Source: Eledone cirrhosa
Lineage: Eukaryota
Direction of reading: 5' to 3'
Assembly: GCA_964016885.1 (NCBI GenBank)
Contig: OZ024740.1
Span: 420,980,001-421,044,000, forward strand
Length of the DNA: 64,000 nucleotides
Shown here piece by piece: positions 2,702-39,810 of the stretch. A model generated the notes under the pieces. That model saw nothing but the letters and a program-made list of their open reading frames with translations, was not told the origin of the DNA and did not search any database. The position numbers were made by a program, and so were the translations under genes. How positions within the stretch are numbered: position 1 is the stretch's first letter; each line of letters opens with the position of its first letter.

Positions 2702-3326
2702 TTAAACAGGGTTTTGTTTTTACCCATTTCTCAGACATAAAATAGGGGTCAGCTTTTATCTTGATTGGCTTCTATTTGAGTATATACTATATGTCATTCG
2801 TATTTTGTTACTTTATTTTCGTTTACTTGTTTCATTTACCCCCCCCCCCCCCCCCCTAGCAGTTTCTACTGGTTTATGTTGTCTTTAATGTTTACACCAC
2901 CATCACCATCATCATCATCACGCCAACATTTTGTCCACTTGTAACAGTGTTAAAGCAATATATGTAGGACTTAATTGAAAGGGAAGGGCAGTCAAACAAA
3001 CCCACCCACAACCATAATTACGCACACACCTACAACCATAATTACACACACACACACAAACACAATCACACACACAAAAACACAATCATGATCACACACA
3101 CACACAACCATGATCACACACAGACACAGATACAACCATGATCACACACACAACTATGATCACATACACACAGATACAACAATGATCACACATACACTTC
3201 ATGTAGCTAGGTTTTGTATTATTTTTAGTAATCTGGACAACATTTTATGTCTTACCATGCTACCGTTATTTGTTTCTATTGTCTATTATCTAAACTTTAA
3301 ACATATCACAACATTTAACAGTTTAA

Positions 3327-3785
3327 GTTTACTTTCAATACTGTTTTAATATCACTTTAAAGACCAGTTTACTTTCAATACTGTTTTAATATCACTTTAA
3401 AGACCAGTTTACTTTCAATACTGTTTTAATATCACTTTAAAGACCAGTTTACTTTCAATACTGTTTTAATATCACTTTAAAGACCAGTTTACTTTCAATA
3501 CTGTTTTAATATCACTTTAAAGACCAGTTTACTTTCAATACTGTTTTAATATCACTTTAAAGACCAGTTTACTTTCAATACTGTTTTAATATCACTTTAA
3601 AGACCAGTTTACTTTCAACACTGTTTTAATATCACTTTAAAGACCAGTTTACTTTCAATACTGTTTTAATATCACTTTAAAGACCAGTTTACTTTGAATA
3701 CTGTTTTAATATCACTTTAAAGACCAGTTTACTTTCAATACTGTTTTAATATCACTTTAAAGACCAGTTTACTTTCAATACTGTT
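3327..3785. repeat. 40-bp minisatellite, about 11.5 copies
   Basis: Unit gtttactttcaatactgttttaatatcactttaaagacca; near-identical copies. Confidence 0.97.
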
Positions 3786-8201: not shown

Positions 8202-8279
8202 TTACTATTTAACTATTTAATATCCATTTTCCTTGCTAGCATGGGTTAGACAATGATATATAATATATATATGATACAT

Positions 8280-8617
8280 GGAGGCACATGGCTTAGTGGT
8301 TAGAGTATTGGGCTTGCAATCGAAAGGTTGTGAGTTCAATTCTCAGACCGGATGAATTATTGTTTCCTTGAGCAAGACACTTTATTTCACATTGCTCCAG
8401 TTTACTCAGCTGTAGAAATGAGATGATAGGGACTGGGGGCCCTATCATTCCACTGCAAAGTAGCCATGGAGGTGCCACGGCAAAAAAACACCCAGCACTC
8501 ACTGTAAATGAGGTTGGTGTTAGGAAGGGCATCCAGCTGTAGAAATCAAGCCAGAATCAGTTGCCGTCCCACCCTTGTAAGCAGGGAAAAGCAGACGTAA
8601 AATGATGATGATGATGA
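8280..8617 (+). mobile_element. tRNA-derived CORE-type SINE family A with RTE tail, full length
   Basis: Box A tggcttagtgg, box B gagttcaattc, CORE-like ccttgagcaagacactttatttcacattgctccagtttactcagctgtagaaatgag, 48-bp module, then tail cacccttgtaagcagggaaaagcagacgtaaaa(tga)n. Confidence 0.88.
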
Positions 8618-9134: not shown

Positions 9135-9345
9135 CATCACCATCATCATCATCACCGTTTAATGTCCATTTTTCCATGCTAGCATCGGTTAGAAGAGTTG
9201 TCTCGTTGTGAGACAAGTCAGATGACCATGTTTTACTCATACAGAACTGTTTCTGGCTTGGTTTCTATGGCTGGATGCCCTTCCTAATGCCAAAGACATT
9301 TACAGCATGGGCTGGATTTTTTTTTTTTTATCGTGGCACCAAAAC
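9135..9345 (-). mobile_element. Short RTE family-2 3'-end fragment
   Basis: (cat)n...tttaatgtccatttttccatgctagcatcggtt...ggctggatgcccttcctaatgcca is the reverse complement of the LINE end at 17350-17500. Similar pieces at about 8640-8685, 8735-8860, 9925-10125 and 38880-38930. Confidence 0.7.
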
Positions 9346-9371
9346 AACCAACTGGCAGGTTGGACTGTGTA

Positions 9372-9680
9372 TCATCATTTCATTCATTTCATTTTACGTC
9401 CGCTTTTCCCTGCTTGCAAGGGTGGGACGGCAACTGATTCTGGCTTGATTTCTACAGCTGGATGCCCTTCCTAACACCAACCTCATTTACAGTGAGTGCT
9501 GGGTGCTTTTTTGCAGTGGAATGATAGGGACCCCAGTCCCTATCATCTCATTTCTACAGCTGAGTAAACTGGAGCAATGTGAAATAAAGTGTCTTGCTCA
9601 AGGAAACAACACATCACCCGGTCTGAGAATTGAACTCACAACCTTTCGATTGCAAGGCCAATGCTCTAACCACTAAGCCA
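9372..9680 (-). mobile_element. SINE family A, internal deletion in the 48-bp module
   Basis: Reverse complement of 8280-8617; lacks part of the module (gggtgcttttttgcagtggaatg). Confidence 0.88.
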
Positions 9681-10289
9681 TATATATATATTATATTATA
9701 TATATATTTAGAATAGGTACTTTGTATCTCTGTGTGTCGGAAGAAAGGACCTATATGGTTAGCTCCAGGAAGGACATCCAGTTGTAAAAGACGGTCTCAA
9801 AATGTCTCATCGAAGCCATGCTAGCATGGGGAAATGGATGTAAAAATGATGATGCTGAAGTGCCACAAATAGTGTCAGATGAAACACCATAGGAAAGGAA
9901 AGCAAAGAAATGCAGACATACACATCATCATCATCTTTGTCACCATTATCACCATTTAATGTTTATTTTCCATGAATGGGTTAGATAGGATGTCATATTA
10001 TGAGGCTAGACAGGTCAGGTAGCCGTATCTCGCTCATATTCACTGTTTTTGGCTTGGTTTTCTACAGCTAGATGTCCCTACTAACAATAACCCCTTTACA
10101 GTGTGTACTGGGAGCTTTTTTCATGGCCAGAAGGCTCATTTGGCCGGTGCTTATCCCAGTTTAGTGGTGTGAAGTGACTGAGAGTACAAGACTTCCTTCT
10201 AGACAGGATGCCAGTCCATCACTGGGTTAAACCCTCAGCTAAATGAAGTATTTTGCTCAAGAACAAAACACACAACCCAGTCAAGTCAA

Positions 10290-12548: not shown

Positions 12549-13786
12549 CATCATCATCATTTTACGTCCGCTTTTCCCTGCTTGCAAGGGTGAGATGGGT
12601 CTTATTCAGCACAGCATCTCTCCACTCGTCACGGTCCCTCGTCATCTCCACCGTGAGCTTCAATGATCTGAAGTCTGTTCTCACCACCTCCGCCCATATT
12701 TTTCATGGTCTACCTCTACCACGTCTTCCTTCAACTGGCATTTCCTGGCACTTCTTCACCCATCGGTCATCCTCCATGCGCATCACATGTCCATACCACC
12801 TCAGTCTCCTCTCCCGTACACTACATTCTATCCCTCTCAGACACAGTTTCTCTCTCAACACATTTATGCTGGGGCGTTCACGCACATTTACACTGCACAT
12901 CCAACGGAGCATGCTTACCTCATTTCTCTCCAACCGTTGCATATCCTCTGCAGTTGCTGCCCATGTCTCACTACCATGCAGCATCGCGCTCCTCACACAG
13001 GCATCATACAACCGGCCTTTCGTACGCAGGGAGAAACCCTTCTTCGTCAACAGAGGAAGCAGCTCCCTAAACTTCTTCCAACCCGTCCTTATTCTAGATA
13101 CTATGGCCTCGGAACACCCTCCTCCCATGCTAATCTGATCTCCTAGGTACCGGAAGCTATCCACCACTTCTATAGCGCCCTCCTGCATTTGAAAAATGTG
13201 TCTATCAATGCGACTTCTACTGTCTAATTTCCCTGTACATCTACTGCATACATATTTCTCCCTACCTGTTAGTTTGCCTGCTATCCCGCTACATCTCCTG
13301 TGTACCCAGGATCTGCATTGTGTGCATTTTATAGAATTTATGCCAGTTTCTTTTCTGCATATCGAACATGGCCATTTCCCTGACAGAATCAGGGTTTTGT
13401 CCTCTTTTCTACTCATCAACACTTTTATCTTAGCTAGGTTCACTCTCAGTCCTCTTGCTTCCAACTGCTGTTTCCATAGCCAGAATTTATTCTCTAGCTC
13501 CTCTACTGATTCTGCTATAAGAACCAGATCGTCAGCATAGAGAAGTTCCCATGGACAGCCAGTCTTAAACTCCTCTGTTATGGCTTGGAGGACTATAATG
13601 AACAAGAGCGGGCTGAGGACCGAACCCTGATGTACTCCTACTTGTATCTGGAATTCCTCACTAAACTCCATTCCTACCCTGACTTTACTGAGAGTACCTC
13701 TATACAAAGTTTGCACTGTCCTCACAAGCCATTCCTCAACACCTAGCTTCCTTAGGGACCCTATCAAAGGCCTTCTCTAGGTCAAT
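12543..13786 (-). mobile_element. RTE-clade LINE family 1, 5'-truncated (RT, PHD-type finger, 3' tail)
   Basis: ORF 12703..13767: [45 protein letters not shown]. After one premature stop the frame continues to [13 protein letters not shown] and a (tga)n tail. Confidence 0.95.
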
Positions 13787-14599: not shown

Positions 14600-17500
14600 G
14601 ACCAATCATAAGTCAGCGGCCTATGCTATCACTTCTTCCGGTTGCCTTTTGATATGATGGATGGACTAGGGAATTCTGGAGAGTCTGAAAAATCTGGACA
14701 CTCAGTGACAATGCCAAAGATAAAGACAAATTCACCTCATGCTGCCGGACGAAAAGGCAAGGACTCCTCTTTATTTCGGCCGTGGATGGCCAACATAACC
14801 CCAACCCCAGCCCCTCACCCCTCCCCGCGCCCCACTGTTCCCACCCACCAAACGCAATCCCAAACTTCAGAGTTGGTACCATGAATGTAGGCACCTTAAA
14901 AGGTCGCTCTAACGAGGTTGTAGAAATGCTTGAACGTAAGGAGGTTGATGTTTAATGTATCCAAGAGACCAGGTGGAGGGGTGGGTCTGCTAGATTCATT
15001 GTGGGTAAAAAACGATGCTATAAGCTTTTCTGGGTGGGAAATGACAATGGGCTGGGTGGGGTAGGAATCATGTTAGCAGAAAAATGGGTAGATAAGATAA
15101 TAGACGTAAATAGAGTGAACGACAGAATAATTAAAATAAGACCTGTCCTAAATAGAACTACCGTGACAGTAATATCTGCGTACGCACCCCAATCCGGACT
15201 GCCTGGCGTTATAAAAGAGAGATTCTATGAGACATTGATGCTCACTAACTCCCAAATAACTGACAGTGACTACATAGGCAATGTGTCAAGGAAAACCGTG
15301 ATATTGTCGGGGAGAAGTGTGTCCTTAATGATGATGGTGTACTTGCCATCACTGACACTGATAAGAAGATAGCTTGGAAGTGTCACTACGAAAGGCTACT
15401 AAATGAAGAGAATAATTAGGAGAAAGAGTCTTCCCCCACATCGATCCAATAGAGGGACCAGCAGTGTTAGTTGAAGGTAGTATAATAAGTAAGGCAATCA
15501 AAGATATGAAGACGGGTAAGGCGGCTGGGCCTTCGGAAATAGTTGCTGAAATGCTGAAAGCATCTGGAATGGTGGGACACACTATGGTCACCCAGATAGT
15601 AAACCAAGTCATACAGAATGGGGTCGATCCGAAGGACTGGCGTAGCAGCATCATCATTAACTGCTACAAGGGTAAAGGAGATGCCCTAGATAGGGGTAAA
15701 ACTATAGAGGCATTAAATTAATTGACCAGGTCATGAAGGTCACAGAAAAAGTAATAGCGCAACTAATCAGAGAACGAAATGATCTAGATGAAATGCAGTT
15801 TGGGTTTGTGTCAGGTAAAAGTACCACAGACGCTCTTTTCATTGTACGACAACTACAGGAGAAGTACCTAGCTAAAAGTAAACCCCTCTACTTAGCTTTT
15901 GTTGACTTAGAGAAAGCTTTTGACAGAGTCCGCCGCTCCATTATCTGGTGGGTTCTTAGAAAACTAGGTGTTGACGAATGGCTTATGAGAGCTATACAAG
16001 CCATATATAAAGAAACAGTCAGCAAGGTTAGAATTAACAACGAATATAGTGAAGAGTTTAGCGTAAAAGTTGGTGTTCATCAGGGCTCCGTCCTTAGCCC
16101 CCTCCTATTTGTTATTGCCCTTCAGGCTATAACAGAGGAGTTCAAGACCGGCTGCCCATGGGAACTCCTATACGCAGATGATCTAACGCTCATAGCTGAA
16201 TCAATGGCTGAACTAGAGAAGAAATTCCAAATATGGAAGCCTGGCCTAGAATCAAAAAGGCCTTAAAATTAACCTGTCTAAGACTAAAGTTCTAGTTTGT
16301 AGGAAGGAAAATAGGGCACTAGTCCCATCTGGGAAATGGCCATGCTCAGTGTGTAGGAAAGGAGTAGGCAGAAACTCCATTTTATGTCCCAAATGCAAAG
16401 TATGGGTGCATAAAAGATGTAGTGGGATCACAGGTAAGCTAACTAAGAATATAGATTTTATATGTGGCCGGTGCTCTGGTGCAATAAGTAGCAGCAAGTG
16501 CCCACAGAATACTAGCTCATTCCATTGCACAGATGGTTCTATAGAAATAGTGGACACCTTCCGTTACCTGGGTGACAAAATCAGCAGTGGTGGAGGGTGC
16601 TCTGAAAGTACAGTAGCTAGAGTCAGAACGGGATGGAAAAAGTTCAGAGGGCTTATACCACTATTAGCCGCTAAAGGGTTCTTACTAAAAATGAAAGGCA
16701 GGCTGTATGATGCCTGCATACGAACAGCAATGTTACATGGCAGTGAGACCTGGGCATTGTGTGCAGAGGATATACGCAGACTAGAGAGGAACGAAGCTTG
16801 CATGCTCCGCTGGATGTGTAATAGTAATATACGTGAACGGCAAAGCATAAACGAACTAAGGGAGAAATTAGGAATAAGAGGGATCAGATGATGTTTACTC
16901 GAGAGAAGACTACGTTGGTATGGTCACGTGATGCGCATGAAAGACGACAGTTGTATAAAAAAGTGCAGGGCGATAAAAATAGACGGTAGCCACGGAGTAG
17001 GCAGACCCAGAAAAACCTGGGACGACTTGATAAATTCCGACCTCACACACTTACACCTCTCAAAGACAATGTCACTGGACCGAGATCTTTGGTGCTACAC
17101 AGTAATACAGAAGACCCGCCTGGCCTAAGTACAAAGCGAAACCTACAGCCAGTAGGCACCTCTAACAAAAATACACCCCGTCCCACTACACCCACCCCAT
17201 CCACACCACTCCTTTCAATGTAAAGTTATGTTGGTACCACAACATCCAGGCCGAAACAAATGAGGTTGTGTAGGTGTCACGACAAAAAAAACACACAGTC
17301 CACGTAATGTGGCCGTGTAGGTAACACGGTAAAAACCTCCCAGTCCAGACTGTAAACGTGGTTGGTGTTAGGAAGGGCATCCAGCCGTAGAAAACCCGCC
17401 AGACAATCCTATACGAGCAAGTCAACCAATCTTGCCTCAAGTGGGAAAATTCCCGTCCAAACCCATGCTAGCGTGGAAGATGGACGTTAAACGATGATGA
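14600..17500 (+). mobile_element. RTE-clade LINE family 2, near full length but inactivated (APE, RT, PHD-type finger, 3'UTR)
   Basis: APE motifs GTMNVGTL, V*CIQETRW, GGVGIML, ISAYAPQ. RT motifs QFGFVSGKSTTDALF, FVDLEKAFDRV, QGSVLSPLLF, YADD. Internal deletion near 15280, plus stops and frameshifts. Ends aacccatgctagcgtggaagatggacgttaaacgatgatga. Confidence 0.95.
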
Positions 17501-18545: not shown

Positions 18546-18608
18546 AATAAACTTTTCAAGGATTTACACCAGTCCAGCCTCCTGTTATTTTATTTGTAAT
18601 AATTAATG

Positions 18609-18944
18609 GAGGCACATGGCTTAGTGGTTAGAGCATTGGCCTTGCAATCGAAAGGTTGTGAGTTCAATTCTCAGACCGGGTGATGTGTTATTTCCTTGAG
18701 CAAGACACTTTATTTCACATTGCTCCAGTTCACTCAGCTGTAGAAATGAGATGATAGGGTCTAGGGGCCCTATCATTTCACTACAAAATGGTCGTGGAGG
18801 TGCCACTGCAAAAAAGCACCCAGCACTCACTGTAAATGAGGTTGGTGTTAGGAAGGGCATCCAGCTGTAGAAATCAAGCCAGAATCAGTTCCCGTCCCAC
18901 CCTTGCAAGCAGGGAAAAAGCGGACGTAAAATGAAATGAATGAA
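18609..18944 (+). mobile_element. SINE family A, full length
   Basis: Colinear with 8280-8617; possible aattaa TSD. Confidence 0.9.
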
Positions 18945-19097
18945 TTAACTCCGTATTAGCACCACCAACTACACAAACGAAGACGGGTGAACTGCACTAC
19001 GTTGAGTACTCTCCATAATATTACATCAAGATTGACCATACGGAATGACCAATTCTATCTAGTGGTGAACCAACAAATCTAAATAAATATATATATA

Positions 19098-19738
19098 TAA
19101 ATGAACTAATTGAGAAATTAGGAATAAGAGGGATCAGATGTTGTTTACTTGAGAGAAGACAGCTGTATAAAAAAGTGCAGGGCGATCAAAATTGATGGTA
19201 GTTACGGAGTAGGTAGACCCAGAAAAACCTGGGACAATCTAATAAATTCCGACCTTACACACTTGCACCTCTCTAAGACAATGTCACTGGACCGAGATCT
19301 TTGGTGCTACGGAGTAATACAGAAGACCCGCCTTGCCTATGTACAAAGTGAAACCTACTGTCAGTAGGCACCTCTTAACCAAATATACACCACAATCCAC
19401 TACTCCTACCCTATCCTCCCACTCCCACCAACCTCTCTCTGTAAAGTTGGTACCACAACATCCAGTCCAAATAAATGAGATAATGAGATTGTATAGGTGT
19501 CACGACAAAAAACACACAGTCCACGCTGTAATGTGGCCGTGTAGGGAACACGGTAAAAAGTTCCCAGTTCCACACTGTAAATGTGGTTGGTGTTAGGAAG
19601 GGCATCCAGCCGTAGAAAACCTGCCAGATAGTCCTATATGAGCGAGACATGGTCACCTGACCAACCTTGACTCAAATTGGGACAACTCCCATCTAACCCA
19701 TGCTAGCGTGGAAAATGGACATTAAACGATGATGATGA

Positions 19739-19741
<3 letters not shown>
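19098..19741 (+). mobile_element. RTE family 2 LINE 3' end, 5'-truncated
   Basis: Colinear with 16846-17500 (SCIKKCRAIKIDGSYGVGRPRKTWD...QKTRLA); the (gat)n tail abuts (TA)n. Confidence 0.93.
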
Positions 19742-21345: not shown

Positions 21346-21373
21346 TCAGGATCCTATATATACATATATATAT

Positions 21374-21695
21374 CAATTCTCGGACCGGGTGATGTATTGT
21401 TTCCTTGAGCAAGACACTTTATTTCACATTGCTCCAGTTTACTCAGCTGTAGAAATGAGATGACAGGGACTGGGGTCCATATCATTCCACTGCAAAGTGT
21501 GCCACGGCAAAAAAAAAAGCACCCAGCCCACACTGTAAAGTGGACGTGTAGGCGCCACGGAAAAAAGCACCCAGCACTCACTGTAAATGAGGTTGGTGTT
21601 AGGAAGGGCATCCAGCTGTAGAAATCAAGCCAGAATCAGTTCCCGTCCCACCCTTGCAAGCAGGGAAAAAGCGGACGTAAAATGATGATGATGAT
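21374..21695 (+). mobile_element. SINE family A, 5'-truncated, with an extra 48-bp module
   Basis: CORE-like segment and tail as in the 8280 copy; two tandem gcacccagc.cactgtaaa units. Confidence 0.88.
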
Positions 21696-21957: not shown

Positions 21958-22151
21958 GTCATCATCATCATCGCTGTTTAATGTCTTTCTTAAGCTTGCA
22001 TGAATTAGATGGGGTGTCAAGTTCTGAGACTAGATAGGCCAGGTGACCATGCCTTGCTCATATATAATGTGGTTTGGTTTCCATGGCCGGATGCCCTTCA
22101 CGACATCAACCACTTTACAGTGTGGACTGCAAGTATTTTATCATGATTCTA
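21958..22151 (-). mobile_element. RTE family-2-like 3' tail attached to the 48-bp array
   Basis: catcatcatc..gtttaatgtc..gcttgcatgaattagatgggg..caggtgaccatgccttgctcata..ggccggatgcccttcacgacatcaaccactttacagtgtgg matches the reverse complement of 19570-19740. Confidence 0.8.
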
Positions 22152-23250
22152 TACCACTTTACAGAGGGGGCAGGGTACATTTTATTGTGGAACCCACACT
22201 ACCACTTTACAGAGGGGGCAGGGTACATTTTATTGTGGAACCCACACTACCACTTTACAGAGGGGGCAGGGTACATTTTATTGTGGAACCCACACTACCA
22301 CTTTACAGAGGGGGCTGGGTACATTTTATTGTGGAACCCACACTACCACTTTACAGAGGGGGCTGGGTACATTTTATTGTGGAACCCACACTACCACTTT
22401 ACAGAGGGGGCTGGGTACATTTTATTGTGGAACCCACACTACCACTTTACAGAGGGGGCTGGGTACATTTTATTGTGGAACCCACACTACCACTTTACAG
22501 AGGGGGCAGGGTACATTTTATTGTGGAACCCACACTACCACTTTACAGAGGGGGCTGGGTACATTTTATTGTGGAACCCACACTACCACTTTACAGAGGG
22601 GGCAAGGTACATTTTATTGTGGAACCCACACTACCACTTTACAGAGGGGGCTGGGTACATTTTATTGTGGAACCCACACTACCACTTTACAGAGGGGGCA
22701 GGGTACATTTTATTGTGGAACCCACACTACCACTTTACAGAGGGGGCTGGGTACATTTTATTGTGGAACCCACACTACCACTTTACAGAGGGGGCTGGGT
22801 ACATTTTATTGTGGCACCCACACTACCACTTTACAGAGGGGGCAAGGTACATTTTATTGTGGAACCCACACTACCACTTTACAGAGGGGGCTGGGTACAT
22901 TTTATTGTGGCACCCACACTACCACTTTACAGAGGGGGCAGGGTACATTTTATTGTGGAACCCACACTACCACTTTACAGAGGGGGCTGGGTACATTTTA
23001 TTGTGGAACCCACACTACCACTTTACAGAGGGGGCAGGGTACATTTTATTGTGGAACCCACACTACCACTTTACAGAGGGGGCAGGGTACATTTTATTGT
23101 GGAACCCACACTACCACTTTACAGAGGGGGCTGGGTACATTTTATTGTGGAACCCACACTACCACTTTACAGAGGGGGCTGGGTACATTTTATTGTGGAA
23201 CCCACACTACCACTTTACAGAGGGGGCTGGGTGCATTTTATCGTGGTCCC
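22152..23250 (-). repeat. 48-bp minisatellite, about 23 copies, retroelement-derived
   Basis: Unit accactttacagagggggc(t/a)gggtacattttattgtggaacccacact; period 48 (22153, 22201). Confidence 0.97.
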
Positions 23251-23557
23251 AGCAGTATATCATTAGGGTACATATGTAGAGGCAGGGATGAGAGATCTTG
23301 TGTGGGGGGAGTGAAGCTACATGTTGCTTGCTGAGGGGGAAGGGGTCATTCTACCATGAGAGAGCAAGCATCGGGACTTGTAGGTGACTTTGAAGATAGT
23401 CAGTTGCATCTGGCTGTGTGGGAGTGGTGGTGTGGTGTTGAGGTCAGGCTGACCTTGTTGGACAAGGGAGGTGTGTGGTGGTGTGGTGTTGGGGTCAGGC
23501 TGTGAGGTTATTTTTACAAAATGAAAAAAAACGAGATGTTCTACACAAGTGAAAGTA

Positions 23558-25170: not shown

Positions 25171-25509
25171 CAATAGATAGTTGGAGAGTGGCAGACAAAG
25201 GTCTTGTTGAGTGGTATGTGTGTGTTATATTTATGTATATATATATGTGTGTATGTGTTATATTTATGTATATGTGTGTGTATGTATATTTATATACATG
25301 TATGTATATTATTCACTTTTCAACCTGTCTAATTCTTCCCACATTTAACCACACATTTTCAACTTTCTATAAAGGAACATTTTATTATATTTTCTCACAA
25401 CTAAATTTAAATGTCTGAAGCCATAAAATTATTTTCTTTTTTCTCAAATAATTGGCAATATTTTCATGTTACTTTTTAAAAAATTGTTTTCCTAGTTTCA
25501 GTAAATCAA

Positions 25510-26607
25510 GTGTGACCATGTTAATGACCTCCTTTTAGACTATAGTCAACTGAAGTGTGACCATGTATGTGTACCTCCTTTTAGACTATAGTCAACTGAA
25601 GTGTGACCATGTATGTGTACCTCCTTTTAGACTATAGTCAACTGAAGTGTGACCATGTATGTGTACCTCCTTTTAGACTATAGTCAACTGAAGTGTGACC
25701 ATGTATGTGTACCACCTTTTAGACTATAGTCAACTGAAGTGTGACCATGTATGTGTACCACCTTTTAGACTATAATCAACTGAAGTGTGACCATGTATGT
25801 GTACCTCCTTTTAGACTATAGTCAACTGAAGTGTGACCATGTATGTGTACCACCTTTTAGACTATAGTCAACTGAAGTGTGACCATGTATGTGTACCACC
25901 TTTTAGACTATAGTCAACTGAAGTGTGACCATGTATGTGTACCACCTTTTAGACTATAGTCAACTGAAGTGTGACCATGTATGTGTACCTCCTTTTAGAC
26001 TATAGTCAACTGAAGTGTGACCATGTATGTGTACCACCTTTTAGACTATAGTCAACTGAAGTGTGACCATGTATGTGTACCTCCTTTTAGACTATAGTCA
26101 ACTGAAGTGTGACCATGTATGTGTACCTCCTTTTAGACTATAGTCAACTGAAGTGTGACCATGTATGTGTACCACCTTTTAGACTATAGTCAACTGAAGT
26201 GTGACCATGTATGTGTACCTCCTTTTAGACTATAGTCAACTGAAGTGTGACCATGTATGTGTACCACCTTTTAGACTATAGTCAACTGAAGTGTGACCAT
26301 GTATGTGTACCACCTTTTAGACTATAGTCAACTGAAGTGTGACCATGTATGTGTACCACCTTTTAGACTATAGTCAACTGAAGTGTGACCATGTATGTGT
26401 ACCACCTTTTAGACTATAGTCAACTGAAGTGTGACCATGTATGTGTACCTCCTTTTAGACTATAGTCAACTGAAGTGTGACCATGTATGTGTACCACCTT
26501 TTAGACTATAGTCAACTGAAGTCTGACCATGTATGTGTACCTCCTTTTAGACTATAGTCAACTGAAGTCTGACCATGTATGTGTACCTCCTTTTAGACTA
26601 TAGTCAA
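25510..26607. repeat. 46-bp minisatellite, about 24 copies
   Basis: Unit gtgtgaccatgtatgtgtacc(t/a)ccttttagactatagtcaactgaa; period 46 (25601, 25647). Confidence 0.97.
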
Positions 26608-27416: not shown

Positions 27417-27519
27417 GTCGGAGTAGTAAGAAAATACCTAGAAAAAGATCAAACTTTAAAGGTGAATGATCTTAAGGATGCAAATGCCTTACTTGATGGG
27501 GGTGATGTTCTCTTCACTG
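27417..27519 (+). CDS. DDAH: Internal exon of dimethylarginine dimethylaminohydrolase (DDAH-like)
   Basis: Polypyrimidine tract and tttcag acceptor; phase 0 start; translates [34 protein letters not shown](G); donor g|gtaagt in phase 1. Matches human DDAH1 [34 protein letters not shown] as I recall it. Absent from the ORF track. Confidence 0.9.
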
Positions 27520-27685
27520 GTAAGTACTTTCTGATCCCTATATACTGTCTCATGTTTTGGTTTGGGTGTTGTTTCAGGGGATGATGGGAGATCTGACCTT
27601 CTTTGAGGAGTTACACTAAAAGGCTTGGCAGAAAAGTTCATAGGCTGACTATGAAGAATTGATGCTAAAGCTGTGAAATCTTGTA

Positions 27686-30600
27686 TGTAAAGTGGTTGTG
27701 CGAGTGTCTTGACAAAAAGCACCCAGAACACACTGTAAAGTGGTCATGTAGATGTCACAACAAAAAGCACCCAGCACACACTGTAAAGTGGTTGTGTAGG
27801 TGTTACAACAGAAAGCACCCAGAACACACTGTAAAGTGGTCATGTAGATGTCACAACAAAAAGCACCCAGCACACACTGTAAAGTGGTTGTGTAGGTGTT
27901 ACAACAGAAAGCACCCAGAACACACTGTAAAGTGGTCATGTAGTGTTACAACAGAAAGCACCCAGCACACACTGTAAAGTGGTTGTGTAGGTGTTACAAC
28001 AGAAAGCACCCAGAACACGCTGTAAAGTGGTCATGTAGTGTTACAACAGAAAGCACCCAGCACACACTGTAAAGTGGTTGTGTAGGTGTTACAACAGAAA
28101 GCACCCAGAACACGCTGTAAAGTGGTCATGTAGTGTTACAACAGAAAGCACCCAGCACACACTGTAAAGTGGTTGTGTAGGTGTTACAACAGAAAGCACC
28201 CAGAACACGCTGTAAAGTGGTCATGTAGTGTTACAACAGAAAGCACCCAGCACACACTGTAAAGTGGTTGTGTAGGTGTTACAACAGAAAGCACCCAGAA
28301 CACACTGTAAAGTCGTCATGTAGATGTCACAACAAAAAGTACCCAGCACACACTGTAAAGTCGTCATGTAGTGTTACAACAGAAAGCACCCAGCATACAC
28401 TGTAAAGTGGTTGTGTAGGTGTTACAACAGAAAGCACCCAGAACACACTGTAAAGTCGTCATGTAGATGTCACAACAAAAAGCACCCAGCACACACTGTA
28501 AAGTCGTCATGTAGTGTTACAACAGAAAGCACCCAGCACACACTGTAAAGTGGTTGTGTAGGTCTTACAACAGAAAGCACCCAGCACACACTGTAAAGTG
28601 GTTGTGTAGGTGTTACAACAGAAAGCACCCAGCACACACTGTAAAGTGGTTGTGTAGATGTTACAACAGAAAGCACCCAGCACACACTGTAAAGTGGTTG
28701 TGTAGGTGTTACAACAGAAAGCACCGAGCACACACTGTAAAGTGGTTGTGTAGATGTTACAACAGAAAGCACCCAGCACACACTGTAAAGTGGTTGTGTA
28801 GGTGTTACAACAGAAAGCACCCAGCACACACTGTAAAGTGGTTGTGTCGGTGTTACAACAGAAAGCACTCAGAACACACTGTAAAGTCGTCATGTAGTGT
28901 TACAACAGAAAGCACCCAGAACACACTGTAAAGTGGTCATGTAGTGTTACAACAGAAAGCACCCATCACACACTGTAAAGTGGTTGTGTAGGTGTTACAA
29001 CAAAAAGCACCCAGACCACACTGTAAAGTGGTTGTGTAGGTGTTACAACAGAAAGCACCCAGCACACACTGTAAAGTGGTTGTGTAGGTGTTACAACAGA
29101 AAGCACCCAGCATACACTGTAAAGTCGTCATATAGTGTTACAACAGAAAGCACCCATCATACACTGTAAAGTGGTTGTGTAGGTGTTACAACAGAAAGCA
29201 CGCAGCACACACTGTAAAGTGGTTGTGTAGGTGTTACAACAGAAAGCACCCAGCACACACTGTAAAGTCGTCATGTAGTGTTACAACAGAAAGCACCCAG
29301 CACACACTGTAAAGTGTTTGTGTAGGTGTTACAACAGAAAGCACCCAGCACACACTGTAAAGTGGTTGTGTAGGTGTTACAACAGAAAGCACCCAGCATA
29401 CACTGTAAAGTGGTTGTGTAGGTGTTACAACAGAAAGCACCCAGCATACACTGTAAAGTGGTTGTGTAGGTGTTACAACAGAAAGCACCCAGCATACACT
29501 GTAAAGTGGTTGTGTAGGTGTTACAACAGAAAGCACCCAGCACACACTGTAAAGTGGTTGTGTAGATGTTACAACAGAAAGCACCCAGCATACACTGTAA
29601 AGTGGTTGTGTAGGTGTTACAACAGAAAGCACCCAGCATACACTGTACAGTCGTCATGTAGTGTTACAACAGAAAGCACCCAGCATACACTGTAAAGTGG
29701 TTGTGTAGGTGTTACAACAGAAAGCACCCAGCACACACTGTAAAGTCGTGATGTAGATGTTACAACAGAAAGCACCCAGCACACACTGTAAAGTGGTTGT
29801 GTAGGTGTTACAACAGAAAGCACCCAGCACACACTGTAAAGTCGTCATGTAGGTGTCACAACAGAAAGCACCCAGCACACACTGTAAAGTGGTTGTGTAG
29901 ATGTTACAACAGAAAGCACCCAGCACACACTGTAAAGTGGTTGTGTAGGTGTTACAACAGAAAGCACCCAGCACACACTGTAAAGTCGTCATGTAGTGTT
30001 ACAACAGAAAGCACCCAGAACACACTGTAAAGTGGTCATGTAGTGTTACAACAGAAAGCACCCAGCACACACTGTAAAGTGGTTGTGTAGGTGTTACAAC
30101 AAAAAGCACCCAGACCACACTGTAAAGTGGTTGTGTAGGTCTTAAAACAGCAAGCACCCAGCGCACACTGTAAAGTGGTTGTGTAGGTGTTACAACAAAA
30201 AGCACCCAGACCACACTGTAAAGTGGTTGTGTAGGTGTTAAAACAGCAAGCACCCAGCACACACTGTAAACTGGTCATGTAGGTGTTACAACAGAAAGCA
30301 CCCAGCACACACTGTAAAGTGGTTGTGTAGGTGTTACAACAGAAAGCACCCAGCATACACTGTAAAGTGGTTGTGTAGGTGTTACAACAGAAAGCACCCA
30401 GCATACACTGTAAAGTGGTTGTGTAGGTGTTACAACAGAAAGCACGCAGCACACACTGTAAAGTGGTTGTGTAGGTGTTACAACAGAAAGCACCCAGCAC
30501 ACACTGTAAAGTTGTCATGTAGTGTTACAACAGAAAGCACCCAGCATACACTGTACAGTCGTCATGTAGTGTTACAACAGAAAGCACCCAGCATACACTG

Positions 30601-33600
30601 TAAAGTGGTTGTGTAGGTGTTACAACAGAAAGCACCCAGCACACACTGTAAAGTGGTTGTGTAGGTGTTACAACAGAAAGCACCCAGCACACACTGTAAA
30701 GTCGTCATGTAGTGTTACAACAGAAAGCACCCAGCACACACTGTAAAGTCGTGATGTAGGTGTTACAACAGAAAGCACCCAGCACACACTGTAAAGTGGT
30801 TGTTTAGGTGTTACAACAGAAAGCACCCAGCATACACTGTAAAGTGGTTGTGTAGGTGTTACAACAGAAAGCACCCAGCATACACTGTAAAGTGGTTGTG
30901 TAGGTGTTACAACAGAAAGCACCCAGCATACACTGTAAAGTGGTTGTGTAGGTGTTACAACAGAAAGCACCCAGCACACACTGTAAAGTGGTTGTGTAGG
31001 TGTTACAACAGAAAGCACCCAGCACACACTATAAAGTGGTTGTGTAGGTGTTACAACAGAAAGCACCCAGCACACACTGTAAAGTGGTTGTGTAGGTGTC
31101 ACAACAGAAAGCACCCAGCATACACTGTACTGTGGTTGTGTAGGTGTTACAACAGAAAGCACCCAGCACACACTATAAAGTGGTTGTGTAGGTGTTACAA
31201 CAGAAAGCACCCAGCATACACTGTAAAGTGGTTGTGTAGGTGTTACAACAGAAAGCACCCAGCATACACTGTAAAGTGGTTGTGTAGGTGTTACAACAGA
31301 AAGCACCCAGCATACACTGTAAAGTGGTTGTGTAGGTGTTACAACAGAAAGCACCCAGCATACACTGTAAAGTGGTTGTGTAGATGTTACAACAGAAAGC
31401 ACCCAGCACACACTGTAAGGTGGTTGTGTAGGTGTTACAACAGAAAGCACCCAGCATACACTGTAAAGTGGTTGTGTAGATGTTACAACAGAAAGCACCC
31501 AGCATACACTGTAAAGTGGTTGTGTAGATGTTACAACAGAAAGCACCCAGCACACACTGTAAAGTGGTTGTGTAGGTGTTACAACAGAAAGCACCCAGCA
31601 TACACTGTAAAGTCGTCATGTAGTGTTACAACAGAAAGCACCCAGCACACACTGTAAAGTCGTCATGTAGTGTTACAACAGAAAGCACCCAGCACACACT
31701 GTAAAGTCGTCATGTAGTGTTACAACAGAAAGGACCCAGCACACACTGTAAAGTCGTCATGTAGTGTTACAACAGAAAGCACCCAGCACACACTGTAAAG
31801 TGGTTGTGTAGGTGTTACAACAGAAAGCACCCAGCACACACTGTAAAGTCATGTAGTGTTACAACAGAAAGCACCCAGCATACACTGTAAAGTGGTTGTG
31901 TAGGTGTTACAACAGAAAGCACCCAGCACACACTGTAAAGTGGTTGTGTAGATGTTACAACAGAAAGCACCCAGCACACACTGTAAAGTGGTTGTGTAGG
32001 TGTTACAACAGAAAGCACCCAGCACACACTGTAAAGTGGTTGTGTAGGTGTTATAACAGAAAGCACCCAGCATACACTGTAAAGTCGTCATGTAGTGTTA
32101 CAACAGAAAGCACCCAGCATACACTGTAAAGTGGTTGTGTAGGTGTTACAACAGAAAGCACCCAGCACACACTGTACTGTGGTTGTGTAGGTGTTACAAC
32201 AGAAAGCACCCAGCACACACTGTAAAGTCGTCATGTAGTGTTACAACAGAAAGCACCCAGCACACACTGTAAAGTCGTGATGTAGGTGTTACAACAGAAA
32301 GCACCCAGCACACACTGTAAAGTGGTTGTGTACGTGTTACAACAGAAAGCACCCAGCACACACTGTAAAGTGGTTGTGTAGGTGTTACAACAGAAAGCAC
32401 CCAGCATACACTGTAAAGTGGTTGTGTAGGTGTTACAACAGAAAGCACCCAGCATACACTGTAAAGTGGTTGTGTAGGTGTTACAACAGAAAGCACCCAG
32501 CACACACTGTAAAGTGGTTGTGTAGATGTTACAACAGAAAGCACCCAGCACACACTGTAAAGTGGTTGTGTAGGTGTTACAACAGAAAGCACCCAGCACA
32601 CACTGTAAAGTGGTTGTGTAGGTGTTATAACAGAAAGCACCCAGCATACACTGTAAAGTCGTCATGTAGTGTTACAACAGAAAGCACCCAGCATACACTG
32701 TAAAGTGGTTGTGTAGGTGTTACAACAGAAAGCACCCAGCACACACTGTACTGTGGTTGTGTAGGTGTTACAACAGAAAGCACCCAGCACACACTGTAAA
32801 GTCGTCATGTAGTGTTACAACAGAAAGCACCCAGCACACACTGTAAAGTCGTGATGTAGGTGTTACAACAGAAAGCACCCAGCACACACTGTAAAGTGGT
32901 TGTGTAGGTGTTACAACAGAAAGCACCCAGCACACACTGTAAAGTGGTTGTGTAGGTGTTACAACAGAAAGCACCCAGCATACACTGTAAAGTGGTTGTG
33001 TAGGTGTTACAACAGAAAGCACCCAGCATACACTGTAAAGTGGTTGTGTAGGTGTTACAACAGAAAGCACCCAGCACACACTGTAAAGTGGTTGTGTAGG
33101 TGTTACAACAGAAAGCACCCAGCACACACTATAAAGTGGTTGTGTAGGTGTTACAACAGAAAGCACCCAGCACACACTGTAAAGTGGTTGTGTAGGTGTT
33201 ACAACAGAAAGCACCCAGCACACACTGTAAAGTGGTTGTGTAGGTGTTACAACAGAAAGCACCCAGCACACACTATAAAGTGGTTGTGTAGGTGTTACAA
33301 CAGAAAGCACCCAGCACACACTGTAAAGTGGTTGTGTAGGTGTTACAACAGAAAGCACCCAGCACACACTGTAAAGTGGTTGTGTAGATGTTACAACAGA
33401 AAGCACCCAGCACACACTGTAAAGTGGTTGTGTAGGTGTTACAACAGAAAGCACCCAGCACACACTGTAAAGTGGTTGTGTAGTTACAACAGAAAGCATC
33501 CAGCACACACTGTAAAGTCGTCATGTAGTGTTACAACAGAAAGCACCCAGCACACACTGTAAAGTCGTCATATAGTGTTACAACAGAAAGCACCCAGCAC

Positions 33601-35137
33601 ACGCTGTAAAGTCGTCATGTAGTGTTACAACAGAAGGCACCCAGCACACACTGTAAAGTCGTCATGTAGTGTTACAACAGAAAGCACCCAGCACACACTG
33701 TAAAGTGGTTGTGTAGGTGTTACAACAGAAAGCACCCAGCACACACTGTAAAGTGGTTGTGTAGTTACAACAGAAAGCACCCAGCACACACTGTAAAGTC
33801 GTCATGTAGTGTTACAACAGAAAGCACCCAGCACACACTGTAAAGTCGTCATGTAGTGTTACAACAGAAAGCACCCAGCATACACTGTAAAGTGGTTGTG
33901 TAGATGTTACAACAGAAAGCACCCAGCACACACTGTAAAGTGGTTGTGTAGGTGTTACGACAGAAAGCACCCAGCACACACTGTAAAGTGGTCATGTAGT
34001 GTTACAACAGAAAGCACCCAGCATACACTGTAAAGTGGTTGTGTCAGTGTTACAGCAAGCACCCAGCACACACTGTAAAGTGGTTGTGTAGGTGTTACAA
34101 CAGAAAGCACCCAGCACACACTGTAAAGTGGTTGTGTAGGTGTTACAACAGAAAGCACCCAGCACACACTGTAAAGTGGTTGTGTAGGTGTTACAACAGA
34201 AAGCACCCAGCACACACTGTAAAGTGGTTGTGTAGGTGTTACAACAGAAAGCACCCAGCACACACTGTAAAGTCGTCATGTAGTGTTACAACAGAAAGCA
34301 CCCAGCATATACTGTAAAGTGGTTGTGTCGGTGTTACAACAGCAAGCACCCAGCACACACTGTAAAGTGGTTGTGTAGGTGTTACAACAGAAAGCACCCA
34401 GCACACACTGTAAAGTGGTTGTGTAGGTGTTACAACAGAAAGCACCCAGCACACACTGTAAAGTGTTTGTGTAGGTGTTACAACAGAAAGCACCCAGCAC
34501 ACACTGTAAAGTGTTTGTGTAGGTGTTACAACAGAAAGCACCCAGCACACACTGTAAAGTGTTTGTGTAGGTGTTACAACAGAAAGCACCCAGCACACAC
34601 TGTAAAGTGTTTGTGTAGGTGTTACAACAGAAAGCACCCAGCACACACTGTAAAGTGTTTGTGTAGGTGTTACAACAGAAAGCACCCAGCACACACTGTA
34701 AAGTGGTTGTGTAGGTGTTACAACAGAAAGCACCCAGCACACACTGTAAAGTGGTTGTGTAGGTGTTACAACAGAAAGCACCCAGCACACACTGTAAAGT
34801 GGTTGTGTAGATGTTACAACAGAAAGCACCCAGCACACACTGTAAAGTGTTTGTGTAGGTGTTACAACAGAAAGCACCCAGCACACACTGTAAAGTGGTT
34901 GTGTAGGTGTTACAACAGAAAGCACCCAGCACACACTGTAAAGTGGTTGTGTAGGTGTTACAACAGAAAGCACCCAGCACACACTGTAAAGTGGTTGTGT
35001 AGATGTTACAACAGAAAGCACCCAGCACACACTGTAAAGTGGTTGTGTAGGTGTTACAACAGAAAGCACCCAGCATACACTGTAAAGTGGTTGTGTCGGT
35101 GTTACAGCAAGCACCCAGCACACACTGTAAAGTGGTT
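27686..35137 (+). repeat. 47/48-bp minisatellite, about 7.45 kb and 155 copies, retroelement-derived
   Basis: Unit ctgtaaagtggttgtgtaggtgttacaacagaaagcacccagcacaca, with 47-bp variant ctgtaaagtcgtcatgtagtgttac... Copy number estimated from length/period. Confidence 0.98.
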
Positions 35138-35270
35138 GGTGTTAGGAAGGACATTCAACCATAGAAACATTTCTGTATGAGCAAGACAGTCACCTGACCT
35201 GACTTTCCTCAAACAGGGCCATCTATCTAACCCATGCTAGGACAATAGATGTTAAATGATATTGATGATG
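35138..35270 (+). mobile_element. RTE family-2-like 3' tail terminating the array
   Basis: ggtgttaggaaggacattcaaccatagaaac..tatgagcaagacagtcacctgacc..ctaacccatgctaggacaatagatgttaaatgatattgatgatg is colinear with 19589-19740. Confidence 0.85.
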
Positions 35271-36231: not shown

Positions 36232-37729
36232 TTCTGTTGTCTAAATGATCTGGTACAACTATGGTAGATCAGTATCTGTTGTCTAAATAGTCTGGTACAA
36301 CTATGGTAGATCAGTATCTGTTGTCTAAATAGTCTGGTACAACTATGGTAGATCAGTATCTGTTGTCTAAATAGTCTGGTACAACTATGGTAGATCAGTA
36401 TCTGTTGTGTAAATAGTCTGGTACAACTGTGGTAGATCAGTATCTGTTGTGTAAATAGTCTGGTACAACTGTGGTAGATCAGTATCTGTTGTCTAAATAG
36501 TCTGGTACAACTGTGGTAGATCAGTATCTGTTGTCTAAATAGTCTGGTACAACTATGGTAGATCAGTATCTGTTGTGTAAATAGTCTGGTACAATGATGG
36601 TAGATCAGTATCTGTTGTCTAAATAGTCTGGTACAACTATGGTAGATCAGTATCGGTTGTGTAAATAGTCTGGTACAACTGTGGTAGATCAGTATCTGTT
36701 GTGTAAATAGTCTGGTACAACTATGGTAGATCAGTATCTGTTGTCTAAATAGTTTGGTACAACTATGGTAGATCAGTATCTGTTGTCTAAATAGTCTGGT
36801 ACAACTATGGTAGATCAGTATCTGTTGTGTAAATAGTCTGGTACAACTGTGGTAGATCAGTATCTGTTGTGTAAATAGTCTGGTACAACTGTGGTAGATC
36901 AGTATCTGTTGTCTAAATAGTCTGGTACAACTATGGTAGATCAGTATCTGTTGTCTAAATAGTCTGGTACAACTATGGTAGATCAGTATCTGTTGTCTAA
37001 ATAGTCTGGTACAACTATGGTAGATCAGTATCTGTTGTGTAAATAGTCTGGTACAACTGTGGTAGATCAGTATCTGTTGTGTAAATAGTCTGGTACAACT
37101 GTGGTAGATCAGTATCTGTTGTCTAAATAGTCTGGTACAACTATGGTAGATCAGTATCTGTTGTCTAAATAGTCTGGTACAATTATTGTAGATCAGTATC
37201 TGTTGTGTAAATAGTCTGGTATAACTATGGTAGATCAGTATCTGTTGTGTAAATAGTCTGGTACAACTGTGGTAGATCAGTATCTGTTGTCTAAATAGTC
37301 TGGTACAACTATGGTAGATCAGTATCTGTTGTCTAAATAGTCTGGTACAACTATGGTAGATCAGTATCTGTTGTCTAAATAGTCTGGTACAACTATGGTA
37401 GATCAGTATCTGTTGTGTAAATAGTCTGGTACAATGATGGTAGATCATATTGTGTTGTCTAAATAGTCTGGTACAACTGTGGTAGATCAGTATCTGTTGT
37501 CTAAATGATCTGGTACAACTGTGGTAGATCATATTGTGTTGTCTAAATAGTCTGGTACAAATATGGTAGATCATATTGTGTTGTCTAAATAGTCTGGTAC
37601 AACTATGGTAGATCATATTGTGTTGTCTAAATAGTCTGGTACAACTGTGGTAGATCAGTATCTGTTGTCTAAATAGTCTGGTACAACTATGGTAGATCAG
37701 TATCTGTTGTCTAAATAGTCTGGCACAAC
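36232..37729. repeat. 42-bp minisatellite, about 36 copies, plus about 1 more unit at 38077-38129
   Basis: Unit tctgttgt(c/g)taaatagtctggtacaact(a/g)tggtagatcagta. ORF 36186..37739(-) is its translation. Confidence 0.97.
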
Positions 37730-37731
37730 AT

Positions 37732-38076
37732 GGAGGCACATGGCTTAGTGGTTAGAGCATTGGCCTTGGAATCGAAAGGTTGTGAGTTCAATTCTCAGAC
37801 CGGGTATTGTGTTGTTTCCTTGAGCAAGACACTTTATTTCACATTGCTCCAGTTTACTTAGCTGTAGAAATGAGATGATAGGGACTGGGGTCCAAATCAT
37901 TCCACTGCAAAGTGATCGTGGAGGTGCCATGGCAAAAAAAAGCACCCAGCACTCACTGTAAATGAGGTTGGTGTTAAGAAGGGCATCCAGCTGTAAAAAT
38001 CAAGCCAGAATCAGTTCCCGTCCCACCCTTGCAAGCAAGGAAAAAGCGGACGTAAAATGAAATGATGATGATGATG
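37732..38076 (+). mobile_element. SINE family A inserted into the 42-bp array
   Basis: Full head, CORE, module and tail; the array sequence resumes (aactatggtagatcagtatctg) directly after the (gat)n tail. Confidence 0.9.
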
Positions 38077-38756
38077 AACTATGGTAGATCAGTATCTGTT
38101 GCCTAAATAGTCTGGTATAACTGTGGTAGGCCAGCCTTCTAAAGTGGAAAGGGGCTGATTGAACTAAAGAAATAAAATTTCCATTAGTCTTTCTATTGCT
38201 GATACTATCTGCTGGCTGGAGGTGGAATTTGAACTCAGAACTCACATAGCCAGATCAGATACCACAAAACATACCATCCAACTCTTTAATGAATCCCACC
38301 TTGGGACTGGTACTTTATTTCCTGACCCTGAAAGACAGCAGGAATATGTGTAAGCATGATGTAACCCTCTGTCCTGTCTGAAAGGTCAGTAGTTCTGATT
38401 AAGTACTGACTTGGTCTATAATGACCCGTCCAACTCTTGCTCTGTATGTGTATGTGTGTGTATCATTATCATTTAACATCCATTTCCCTTTTTTCCCTGC
38501 TAGCAAAGGTTGGCTGAGTTGTCACAGACCAAATCAGTAGTCAGAGCTGCTGACCTCTCTGTTGAGCTAGGTGCCTGCACCATCCCCCTTACTTGCATTC
38601 TCACACTCTACCAAGTATCTTAGACAGGCTGGGAGCCTGCTTCTTTTCCAGGCTCTACTGAGTACATTTTAAAAGGGCATCAACACTAGAGAGGTTGTCA
38701 TGACTTTGACACAGCTGAAGAATCATCTCAATCTTTTGTTTGACTGAATGCCCTTC

Positions 38757-39601: not shown

Positions 39602-39810
39602 CCCTTTAGCATTTTACATTACTCTATGTATACTATTGTACTTTCACGGTAAAGGCTTTACCTCACATAATATCGAATCTATAAGATTTTGATATTATTT
39701 ATTTCGAGAAAAATACTTTAACATATGTATGAGCAGCCAGTTATGACTGGTTTGATCAAAAAGAAGTGAGAGAATTCTGGCCAGATATGGCCAGTTTAAA
39801 TGCTAAAGGG
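39602..39810 (-). mobile_element. piggyBac-like MITE, complete, reverse orientation
   Basis: ccctttagcattt ... aaatgctaaaggg followed by TTAA (39811-39814); left flank is ttag. The interior is the reverse complement of the 2481 and 10798 copies. Confidence 0.85.

What the first reader, a model, noticed from the sequence alone, without database searches (positions are those of the whole stretch)
27686..35270. A 48-bp module in the RTE LINE 3'UTR and SINE body repeatedly seeds kilobase minisatellites
Seen: the 7.45-kb array runs without a break into an intact RTE family-2 tail (35138-35270). The 22152-23250 array is attached to the same kind of tail on the minus strand (21958-22151). The two units align without gaps at 36/48 positions (ctgtaaagtggttgtgtaggtgttacaacagaaagcacccagcacaca vs ctgtaaagtggtagtgtgggttccacaataaaatgtacccagccccct), yet each array is internally homogeneous, so they expanded independently. 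The same module occurs as about 2-3 degenerate tandem copies in the LINE 3'UTRs (about 17260-17365 and 19485-19590) and as about 1-2.5 copies in SINE A (9372, 8280, 21374). Inference: the retroelement disperses a proto-VNTR that then amplifies in place, loosely analogous to the SVA VNTR.
Basis: partly seen in the sequence, partly recalled or inferred. Interest (0 to 1): 0.72.

Follow-up and report, generated by a model that had tools for sequence, protein, structure and literature searches.

The report
Jumping-gene tail seeds thousands of minisatellites
A short 48-letter piece near the end of a common jumping gene sits at the core of long repeat arrays at many places in this animal's genome, most likely because it multiplied in place after each copy landed; this is a large new case of a known process, and no job for the arrays is shown.

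Summary
Confirmed. The 7.45-kb array (156 units) and the 1.1-kb array (23 units) each run into a retroelement tail; their units match at 36/48 and never intermix. The module occurs as 1-4 degenerate copies in LINE 3' ends and a tRNA-SINE. Among arrays fetched genome-wide, 32 of 34 A-type and 10 of 21 B-type adjoin a tail (chance 1%). Four unit types follow successive LINE subfamilies and the SINE. Tails are older than array homogeneity in 29 of 30 pairs and arrays carry private variants, so growth after insertion is likely. In unselected DNA, 9 of 106 module stacks have 7 or more units (about 11,000 arrays genome-wide, range 2,000-33,000). Corrections: the tail is decayed, not intact; arrays are not shown to move as SVA does; the module supplies only 9 of 93 sampled minisatellites in a genome that makes them from many seeds. 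Closest known: Ogre 3'UTR satellites, squamate SINE-derived satellites, Alu/B1 minisatellites. The scan noted a 48-bp satellite of this kind before on other DNA (e1-9585604). New member of a known kind; function none shown.

The parts
27686..35138 (+). Array A: about 156 copies of the 48-bp module (A type), 50 unit variants, one 9-unit block duplicated
35139..35270 (+). Decayed LINE-type 3' tail ending in GAT-like repeats, directly after array A
22121..23268 (-). Array B: 24 modules (B type), homogeneous core 22152-23246 plus degenerate end modules
21958..22120 (-). Older, more decayed tail of the same kind after array B
14866..17500 (+). Broken LINE: endonuclease, reverse transcriptase, PHD finger, 3' UTR, GAT tail (5' limit not fixed)
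17216..17349 (+). Unexpanded module stack (2 clear, 1 weak copy) in that LINE's 3' UTR
19100..19740 (+). 5'-truncated LINE copy with 2 modules at 19477-19574 and tail
18606..18945 (+). tRNA-headed SINE with 1 module and a shortened tail
   Evidence: (tRNA 28.1 bits, just under the 29-bit cut-off)
8278..8615 (+). SINE copy, 1 module
9379..9681 (-). SINE copy with an internal deletion, part-module
21373..21695 (+). 5'-truncated SINE copy, 2 modules
37730..38075 (+). SINE copy, 1 module, inserted near the end of an unrelated 42-bp array
9140..9358 (-). Short old tail fragment with 1 module
9940..10146 (-). Short old tail fragment with 1 module
27417..27519 (+). Exon-like DDAH segment between AG and GT; array A begins 166 bases after it and is probably intronic (next exon not located)
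   Evidence: E 0.002; no further exon found
27596..27685 (.). Piece of another dispersed repeat that abuts the 5' end of array A

Best explanation
The two arrays are copies of a 48-bp module from the 3' end of a LINE family and its partner SINE, and they most likely grew in place after insertion by slippage or unequal exchange between neighbouring near-identical modules. Shown: the module is a fixed part of several LINE subfamilies and of a tRNA-SINE (usually 1-2, up to 4 copies); arrays adjoin the tail; each array has its own variants. Inferred: retrotransposition scattered on the order of 100,000-200,000 such seeds; in roughly one in twelve a misalignment in register (48, 49 or 98 bases) made a first perfect duplication; repeated turnover then lengthened and homogenised the array while the tail decayed as single-copy DNA. 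Whether slippage, gene conversion or crossover does the work is not resolved. The arrays are most likely neutral by-products.
For: Tail adjoining: A 32 of 34, B 10 of 21, 4 of 4 unclassified, against 1.1% by chance; the same 32 of 34 count with only the window's own LINE/SINE tails as queries. Unit type follows tail type between A and B (Mantel r 0.56, P 0.0004, n 30). Four unit types: A, B, a 49-bp SINE type (17 loci examined, 14 with a tRNA head, 7-49 modules) and a second-module LINE type (7 loci examined, 4 with tails); plus a mixed 49/98-bp array from the youngest LINE subfamily that starts with the native module order. Tail divergence exceeds within-array divergence in 29 of 30 (median ratio 3.5); no two array tails are closer than 11%. 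Of 531 units from 57 arrays, 408 are nearest to their own array, 72 tie, 51 nearer another. Array A has 3 private changes in 94-97% of its 48-base units, array B 4 in 91-100%; end units keep the family state more often (25% against 13%) and lie further from the array consensus (n 41, P 1e-5); a 9-unit block is repeated (shuffles at most 4). 13 of 36 non-B arrays keep LINE sequence upstream (my reading of the pair list). Unselected DNA: 3 of 46 and 6 of 60 stacks have 7 or more modules.
Against: 11 of 21 B-type arrays have no detectable tail and 0 of 21 show LINE sequence upstream, so their parent is not shown to be an autonomous LINE. Within A, unit and tail distances do not correlate (r -0.11, P 0.78). 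For young SINE arrays, head divergence (0.6-5.9%) is like within-array divergence (2-6%), so the timing test does not separate growth at insertion from growth later. Tail age was measured against a consensus of 8 neighbours, which inflates it where subfamilies are thinly sampled, and within-array divergence used modal-length units only. No orthologous unexpanded allele was seen. Length polymorphism was not measured, so VNTR status is untested.
Confidence: 0.85

Rival explanations
1. Nothing is special about the module: this genome turns any local sequence into minisatellites, and retroelement tails are hit because they are common.
For: Minisatellites cover 9.5% of 790 kb sampled evenly and 16.8% of 400 kb on small contigs. 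Only 2 of 35 and 7 of 58 minisatellite loci are module-derived. Three of the five kilobase arrays in the window (46, 42, 35 bp) are unrelated and had no match in 1.67 Mb of fetched DNA. Flanks of module arrays hold other arrays at 109 per Mb against 44.
Against: Unexpanded stacks cover 0.4-1.0% of bases but give 6-12% of minisatellite loci, about tenfold more. Arrays keep the module's own period and register across loci, which random seeding would not give.
Confidence: 0.12
2. SVA-like mobilisation: source elements with long arrays are transcribed and retrotransposed whole, or reverse transcriptase slips repeatedly on the modules during insertion.
For: Young SINEs with complete head, 7-46 modules and near-intact tail exist, and their arrays hold no run of four T on the sense strand, so polymerase III could read through. 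Three young LINE copies share one 111-bp duplication with the same junction, so small changes in module number appear to be propagated by retrotransposition. Many arrays begin inside a module with no upstream LINE sequence.
Against: Unit order is different at each of 17 SINE loci, and array heads are no closer to each other than to unexpanded heads. Array tails are at least 11% apart. Slippage at insertion would leave units as diverged as the tail, which fails in 29 of 30. 41 of 46 stacks have 1-2 modules. For the two window arrays the tails are old and no target-site duplication remains.
Confidence: 0.1
3. One ancestral satellite was scattered by rearrangement, and retroelements later captured a piece of it.
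For: Very long arrays exist (at least 24 kb of matches on one contig, and one filling an 8.5-kb stretch). A-type units are about 90% alike across loci.
Against: Arrays sit at the module's fixed place before the tail, in four subfamily-specific forms; only one pair of array consensuses was identical; flanks are unrelated except for common repeats.
Confidence: 0.03

Closest known systems
Satellites from tandem repeats in the 3' UTR of Ogre/Tat LTR retrotransposons (Lathyrus FabTR families; PMC7004042, passages read)
   Same: Short tandem repeats in a retroelement 3' UTR are dispersed with the element and some expand into long arrays in place.
   Different: Ogre is an LTR element; expansion there is limited to primary constrictions and gives a few large satellites, whereas here a LINE and a SINE give many dispersed 0.3-30 kb arrays.
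SINE-derived satellites (sSat) of squamates (PMC10702118, abstract and Discussion read)
   Same: Tandem arrays of part of a SINE with a longer terminal unit matching the SINE up to its end; many loci; homogeneity rises with length.
   Different: There the seed is an ordinary SINE segment; here the element already carries a degenerate tandem module, shared by LINE and SINE, and each array keeps private variants.
TE-derived human minisatellites, including LTR12 and L1PA with internal repeats in their consensus (PMC3389668, abstract and part 1 of Results read); mouse B1 VNTR family and MaLR Ms6-hm/Hm-2 (seen only as table rows and references in PMC9659126)
   Same: Multi-locus minisatellites from one element segment, lengthened by local duplication with age.
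   Different: Alu-derived arrays average 2.3-2.4 units in that paper; here arrays reach 20-170 or more units and about 8% of seeds have expanded.
SVA VNTR (properties recalled; PMC8327921 passages only mention its exclusion)
   Same: Head, central tandem array and LINE-dependent tail, as in the expanded SINE copies.
   Different: In SVA the long VNTR is part of the mobile unit; here typical copies carry 1-2 modules and no array was found copied.
RTE-generated microsatellite families in Lepidoptera (PMC2887409, abstract read)
   Same: RTE 3' ends seed repeat families at many loci.
   Different: Those are terminal microsatellites made during retrotransposition; this is an internal 48-bp minisatellite upstream of the tail.

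Membership tests
TE-derived minisatellite/satellite (Ogre 3'UTR, sSat type) | Unit homologous to a fixed segment of the element | tested here: met
TE-derived minisatellite/satellite (Ogre 3'UTR, sSat type) | Array still attached to the element's end in the right orientation | tested here: met
   A 32 of 34, B 10 of 21, chance 1.1%
TE-derived minisatellite/satellite (Ogre 3'UTR, sSat type) | Many short stacks, few long arrays | tested here: met
   41 of 46 stacks have 1-2 modules, 3 have 8 or more; 6 of 60 have 7 or more
TE-derived minisatellite/satellite (Ogre 3'UTR, sSat type) | Expansion by local duplication after insertion | tested here: met
   indirect, and not resolved for young SINE arrays
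TE-derived minisatellite/satellite (Ogre 3'UTR, sSat type) | Orthologous locus with fewer units in a relative | tested here: inconclusive
   Contigs of other runs stop at the repeats
VNTR | Copy number differs between alleles | not testable with these tools
   Only short-read contigs were laid
SVA-like composite retroposon | The long VNTR is part of the mobile consensus | tested here: not met
   Typical copies carry 1-2 modules
SVA-like composite retroposon | Copies at different sites share array structure and have target-site duplications | tested here: not met
   Private unit orders at 17 SINE loci; tails at least 11% apart; no duplication at the two window arrays. Sample is small.
RTE-clade LINE (parent) | Endonuclease and reverse transcriptase in one coding region | tested here: met
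   Exo_endo_phos E 5e-5, just under cut-off; RVT_1 E 4e-27; the copy is broken by stops and frameshifts
RTE-clade LINE (parent) | 3' end in short tandem repeats | tested here: met
   GAT repeats at 17490-17500
RTE-clade LINE (parent) | Groups with RTE in a reverse transcriptase tree | not tested
   No clade-labelled references were returned; a PHD finger follows the RT
tRNA-derived SINE with LINE tail | tRNA-like head and tail shared with a LINE | tested here: met
   Rfam tRNA 28.1 bits against cut-off 29, E 0.011; tail and module shared
Conserved RNA pseudoknot | Covariation beyond relatedness and CpG decay | tested here: inconclusive
   80% paired against 77 (1 of 500 shuffles), but pairs with two-sided change 7 against 6.3 (236 of 500); fold z-scores -0.8 to 0.3

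The most novel reading that the evidence does not exclude
The module is a small RNA pseudoknot that this LINE lineage and its SINE must keep in tandem to be copied, so selection on the RNA keeps renewing a minisatellite seed in every subfamily; and the youngest tRNA-SINEs with 7-46 modules are themselves mobile, a polymerase III counterpart of SVA that is now spreading kilobase VNTRs over the small chromosomes.
Probability: 0.1. Interest if true: 0.7.

Novelty: new member of a known kind. Interest (0 to 1): 0.42.

Why it matters
It gives thousands of natural replicates of minisatellite birth from one known seed, each dated by its own tail and spread over several element ages, which would let one test how seed identity, age and chromosome setting control expansion. 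It also means repeat annotation in this genome will split single insertions into LINE plus satellite, and that some introns (probably the DDAH gene here) gain kilobases this way. The principle itself is established in plants, reptiles and mammals, and no function is shown.

Tried and rejected
Genome-wide pattern counting of four tandem copies was not available for this genome, so counts rest on best-scoring DNA hits and on evenly spaced samples. Orthologue test: contigs of a related organism (X1) and of runs near-identical to the window (X18, X19) end at the flanking repeats and show nothing on array length; runs with small shares were not used as evidence. Idea that the youngest LINE subfamily cannot expand because its modules have diverged (longest perfect repeat 6-9 bases against up to 27 in an older copy): rejected, since L218 is such an array. 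Idea that seeds expand more often on small contigs: array density is higher off the largest contigs (0 in 570 kb against 9 in 620 kb), but per stack it is 0 of 23, 3 of 13 and 6 of 70, P 0.20, so not shown. Hairpin-driven instability: module folding is no better than shuffles. Rfam gave no family for the module. Target-site duplications: none. DDAH family search found no exon, so the gene model is open. Protein homologue search named no clade. Assembly artefact was considered and rejected: array A has 50 unit variants in a non-random order.
Full report
Observation. Tandem Repeats Finder gives a 48-bp array of 156.3 copies at 27686-35138 (93% matches) and one of 22.8 copies at 22152-23246 (97%). 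Their majority units match at 36 of 48 places; the nearest A and B units differ at 10 places. Array A passes without a break into a tail with GAT-type repeats; array B, on the minus strand, does so after one more degenerate module. The tail of array A is decayed: 70% identical to the window LINE, four small deletions, 14% from its nearest tail among 96; tail B is 30% from its nearest.

Parent elements. The LINE at about 14866-17500 has an endonuclease (E 5e-5, just under cut-off), RVT_1 (E 4e-27) and a PHD finger, a 3' UTR of about 370 bases and a GAT tail. This fits the RTE clade as described in PMC2887409 (abstract) and PMC9115989 (one Results section and passages), but no tree was made, so the clade is a label by anatomy. 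The SINE has a tRNA-like head and shares module and tail. That the animal is an octopus-like mollusc is my recollection of this repeat tail and the wording of earlier scan notes, not a call result. Array A begins 166 bases after an exon-like DDAH segment and abuts a piece of another dispersed repeat.

Genome-wide test. Six units of A and of B were searched in G000 (3.0 Gb): 1604 and 1164 candidates, 40 scored each. I fetched 33 distinct A-hit loci (35 stretches) and 20 of the 28 B-hit loci that I could list; these are the best-scoring hits and so lean towards arrays like the window's. Of 66 array rows I dropped 5 (two further pieces of one array, one overlap, one 200-bp unit, one degenerate 5-module stack); 2 more had ends outside the stretch. 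A tail lies within 200 bases of the 3' end in 32 of 34 A-type, 10 of 21 B-type and 4 of 4 unclassified arrays, against 1.1% of random positions. The tail profiles were seeded partly from these arrays, but BLAST with only the window's LINE and SINE tails also gave 32 of 34 for A. LINE sequence lies upstream of 13 of 36 non-B arrays by my reading of the pair list, a SINE head upstream of 1, and nothing recognisable upstream of the 21 B arrays. The B parent may be an older LINE or a short non-autonomous element (compare bipartite RTE elements, PMC5786205, passages); this is open.

More unit types. A search with a SINE-type array (1048 candidates, 40 scored) gave 17 loci that I examined: 14 have the tRNA head, 0.6-5.9% from consensus, with 7-49 modules of 49 bases. 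A search with a second-module LINE array (1403 candidates) gave 7 loci examined, 4 with tails. An unselected stretch held a mixed 49/98-bp array of the youngest LINE subfamily that begins with the native module order. So the module has expanded in each element type looked at.

In place or mobilised. Among 96 near-full LINE-type tails, those with arrays lie a median 12% from a local consensus, while units lie a median 4.3% from their array consensus; the tail is the more diverged in 29 of 30 pairs, and no two array tails are closer than 11%. Unit and tail distances correlate across A and B (r 0.56, P 0.0004) but not within A (r -0.11). Of 531 units from 57 arrays, 408 are nearest to their own array, 72 tie and 51 are nearer another. 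Array A carries 3 private changes in 94-97% of its 48-base units and array B 4 in 91-100%; end units keep the family state twice as often as inner units; a 9-unit block of array A is repeated 12 units later, where 300 shuffles gave at most 4. These are marks of turnover inside the array after insertion. Limits: the local consensus overstates tail age where sampling is thin; units of odd length were left out of the divergence figure; and for young SINE arrays head and array divergence are alike, so timing is not resolved, though unit order differs at each locus and array heads do not cluster. Three young LINE copies share one 111-bp duplication, so small steps in module number probably do travel by retrotransposition.

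Base rates. In 79 evenly spaced 10-kb stretches (an 80th did not exist) there were 46 module stacks: 24 single, 17 double, 2 of four, and 3 of 8, 9 and 23 modules. Scaled by hand this is about 175,000 stacks and about 11,000 arrays (Poisson range 2,000-33,000). In 40 stretches on five small contigs, 6 of 60 stacks had 7 or more. Module arrays are 2 of 35 and 7 of 58 minisatellite loci while unexpanded stacks cover 0.4% and 1.0% of bases: an enriched seed in a genome where minisatellites already cover 9.5-17% of sampled DNA. The window's 46-, 42-, 40- and 35-bp arrays matched nothing in 1.67 Mb of fetched DNA. Top hits of the SINE and second-module types lie mostly on small contigs (11 of 20 and 23 of 32, on 5.6% of the genome, hand-listed), but elements are also denser there and the per-stack rate does not differ significantly (P 0.20).

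Why a tandem module. By eye the module could form two crossed helices with a few compensating changes between subfamilies (noted). On 32 modules the structure gave 80% pairing against 77% in shuffles (1 of 500) and beat all slid controls, but pairs with two-sided change were not above chance (236 of 500), CpG decay can mimic some of them, and folding energy is ordinary. It remains a lead.

Known relatives and novelty. The process is described for Ogre 3' UTR repeats (PMC7004042, passages), squamate SINEs (PMC10702118, abstract and Discussion), human elements (PMC3389668, abstract and part of Results) and, in a review table, mouse B1 and MaLR (PMC9659126, passages). I found no paper on this module or these arrays in searches (listings); the recent octopus repeat annotation PMC13282606 (first third and word search) has no occurrence of 'satellite' or 'minisatellite' at a word start. 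The library lacks most subscription papers and Repbase, and I opened no supplements, where such repeats may be listed. Earlier notes of this scan describe a 30-kb 48-bp satellite with the same proposed origin, LINE-derived arrays and a pseudoknot stack in this genome; they are not independent support, and none lay near this window.

Verdict. Real, correctly read in its main claim, and larger in scale than the window shows; a new member of a known kind with no function shown. Interest 0.42.

Noticed in passing
window 36233-38110: A 42-bp array (35.8 copies) has a full SINE inserted near its end, with about one more unit beyond it.
   Followed up: partly
window 25508-26607, 40345-64000, 3326-3785, 2018-2245: Further minisatellites (46, 35, 40, 29 bp) unrelated to the module; the 35-bp array runs at least 23.6 kb to the window's end. 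Only the 29-bp unit had a match in 1.67 Mb of fetched DNA.
   Followed up: partly
window 16250-16891 and 12703-13776 (minus): Both LINE copies encode a PHD finger after the reverse transcriptase; many homologues share this layout.
   Followed up: partly
L059:7504-7733, L155:4869-5123, L159:3707-3819: Three young LINE copies share a 111-bp duplication of the last module plus the tail start with the same junction.
   Followed up: partly
G000:C28:12742000-12772000 (L060-L062): A-type module array filling three adjacent 10-kb stretches, with higher-order repetition; ends not seen.
   Followed up: no
G000 C23-C27: SINE-type and second-module arrays cluster on the smallest large contigs, which also hold more elements and are poorer in G+C in the sample.
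   Followed up: partly
L156:8264-9287: A 60-bp array whose unit resembles a piece of another dispersed repeat (seen at window 39615-39680), suggesting that other elements also seed arrays.
   Followed up: no
L142:6834-7594 and L151:3551-4076: Related 40-bp arrays on two contigs: a second multi-locus minisatellite family.
   Followed up: no
L074:1213-1617: Two 98% identical copies of a 200-bp unit that holds a module and tail start of another subfamily.
   Followed up: no
L193 and L168: Arrays flanked by an inverted or repeated piece of the same SINE.
   Followed up: no
window 27417-27519: Exon-like DDAH segment; a related organism's contig (X1) covers it at about 91% identity.
   Followed up: partly
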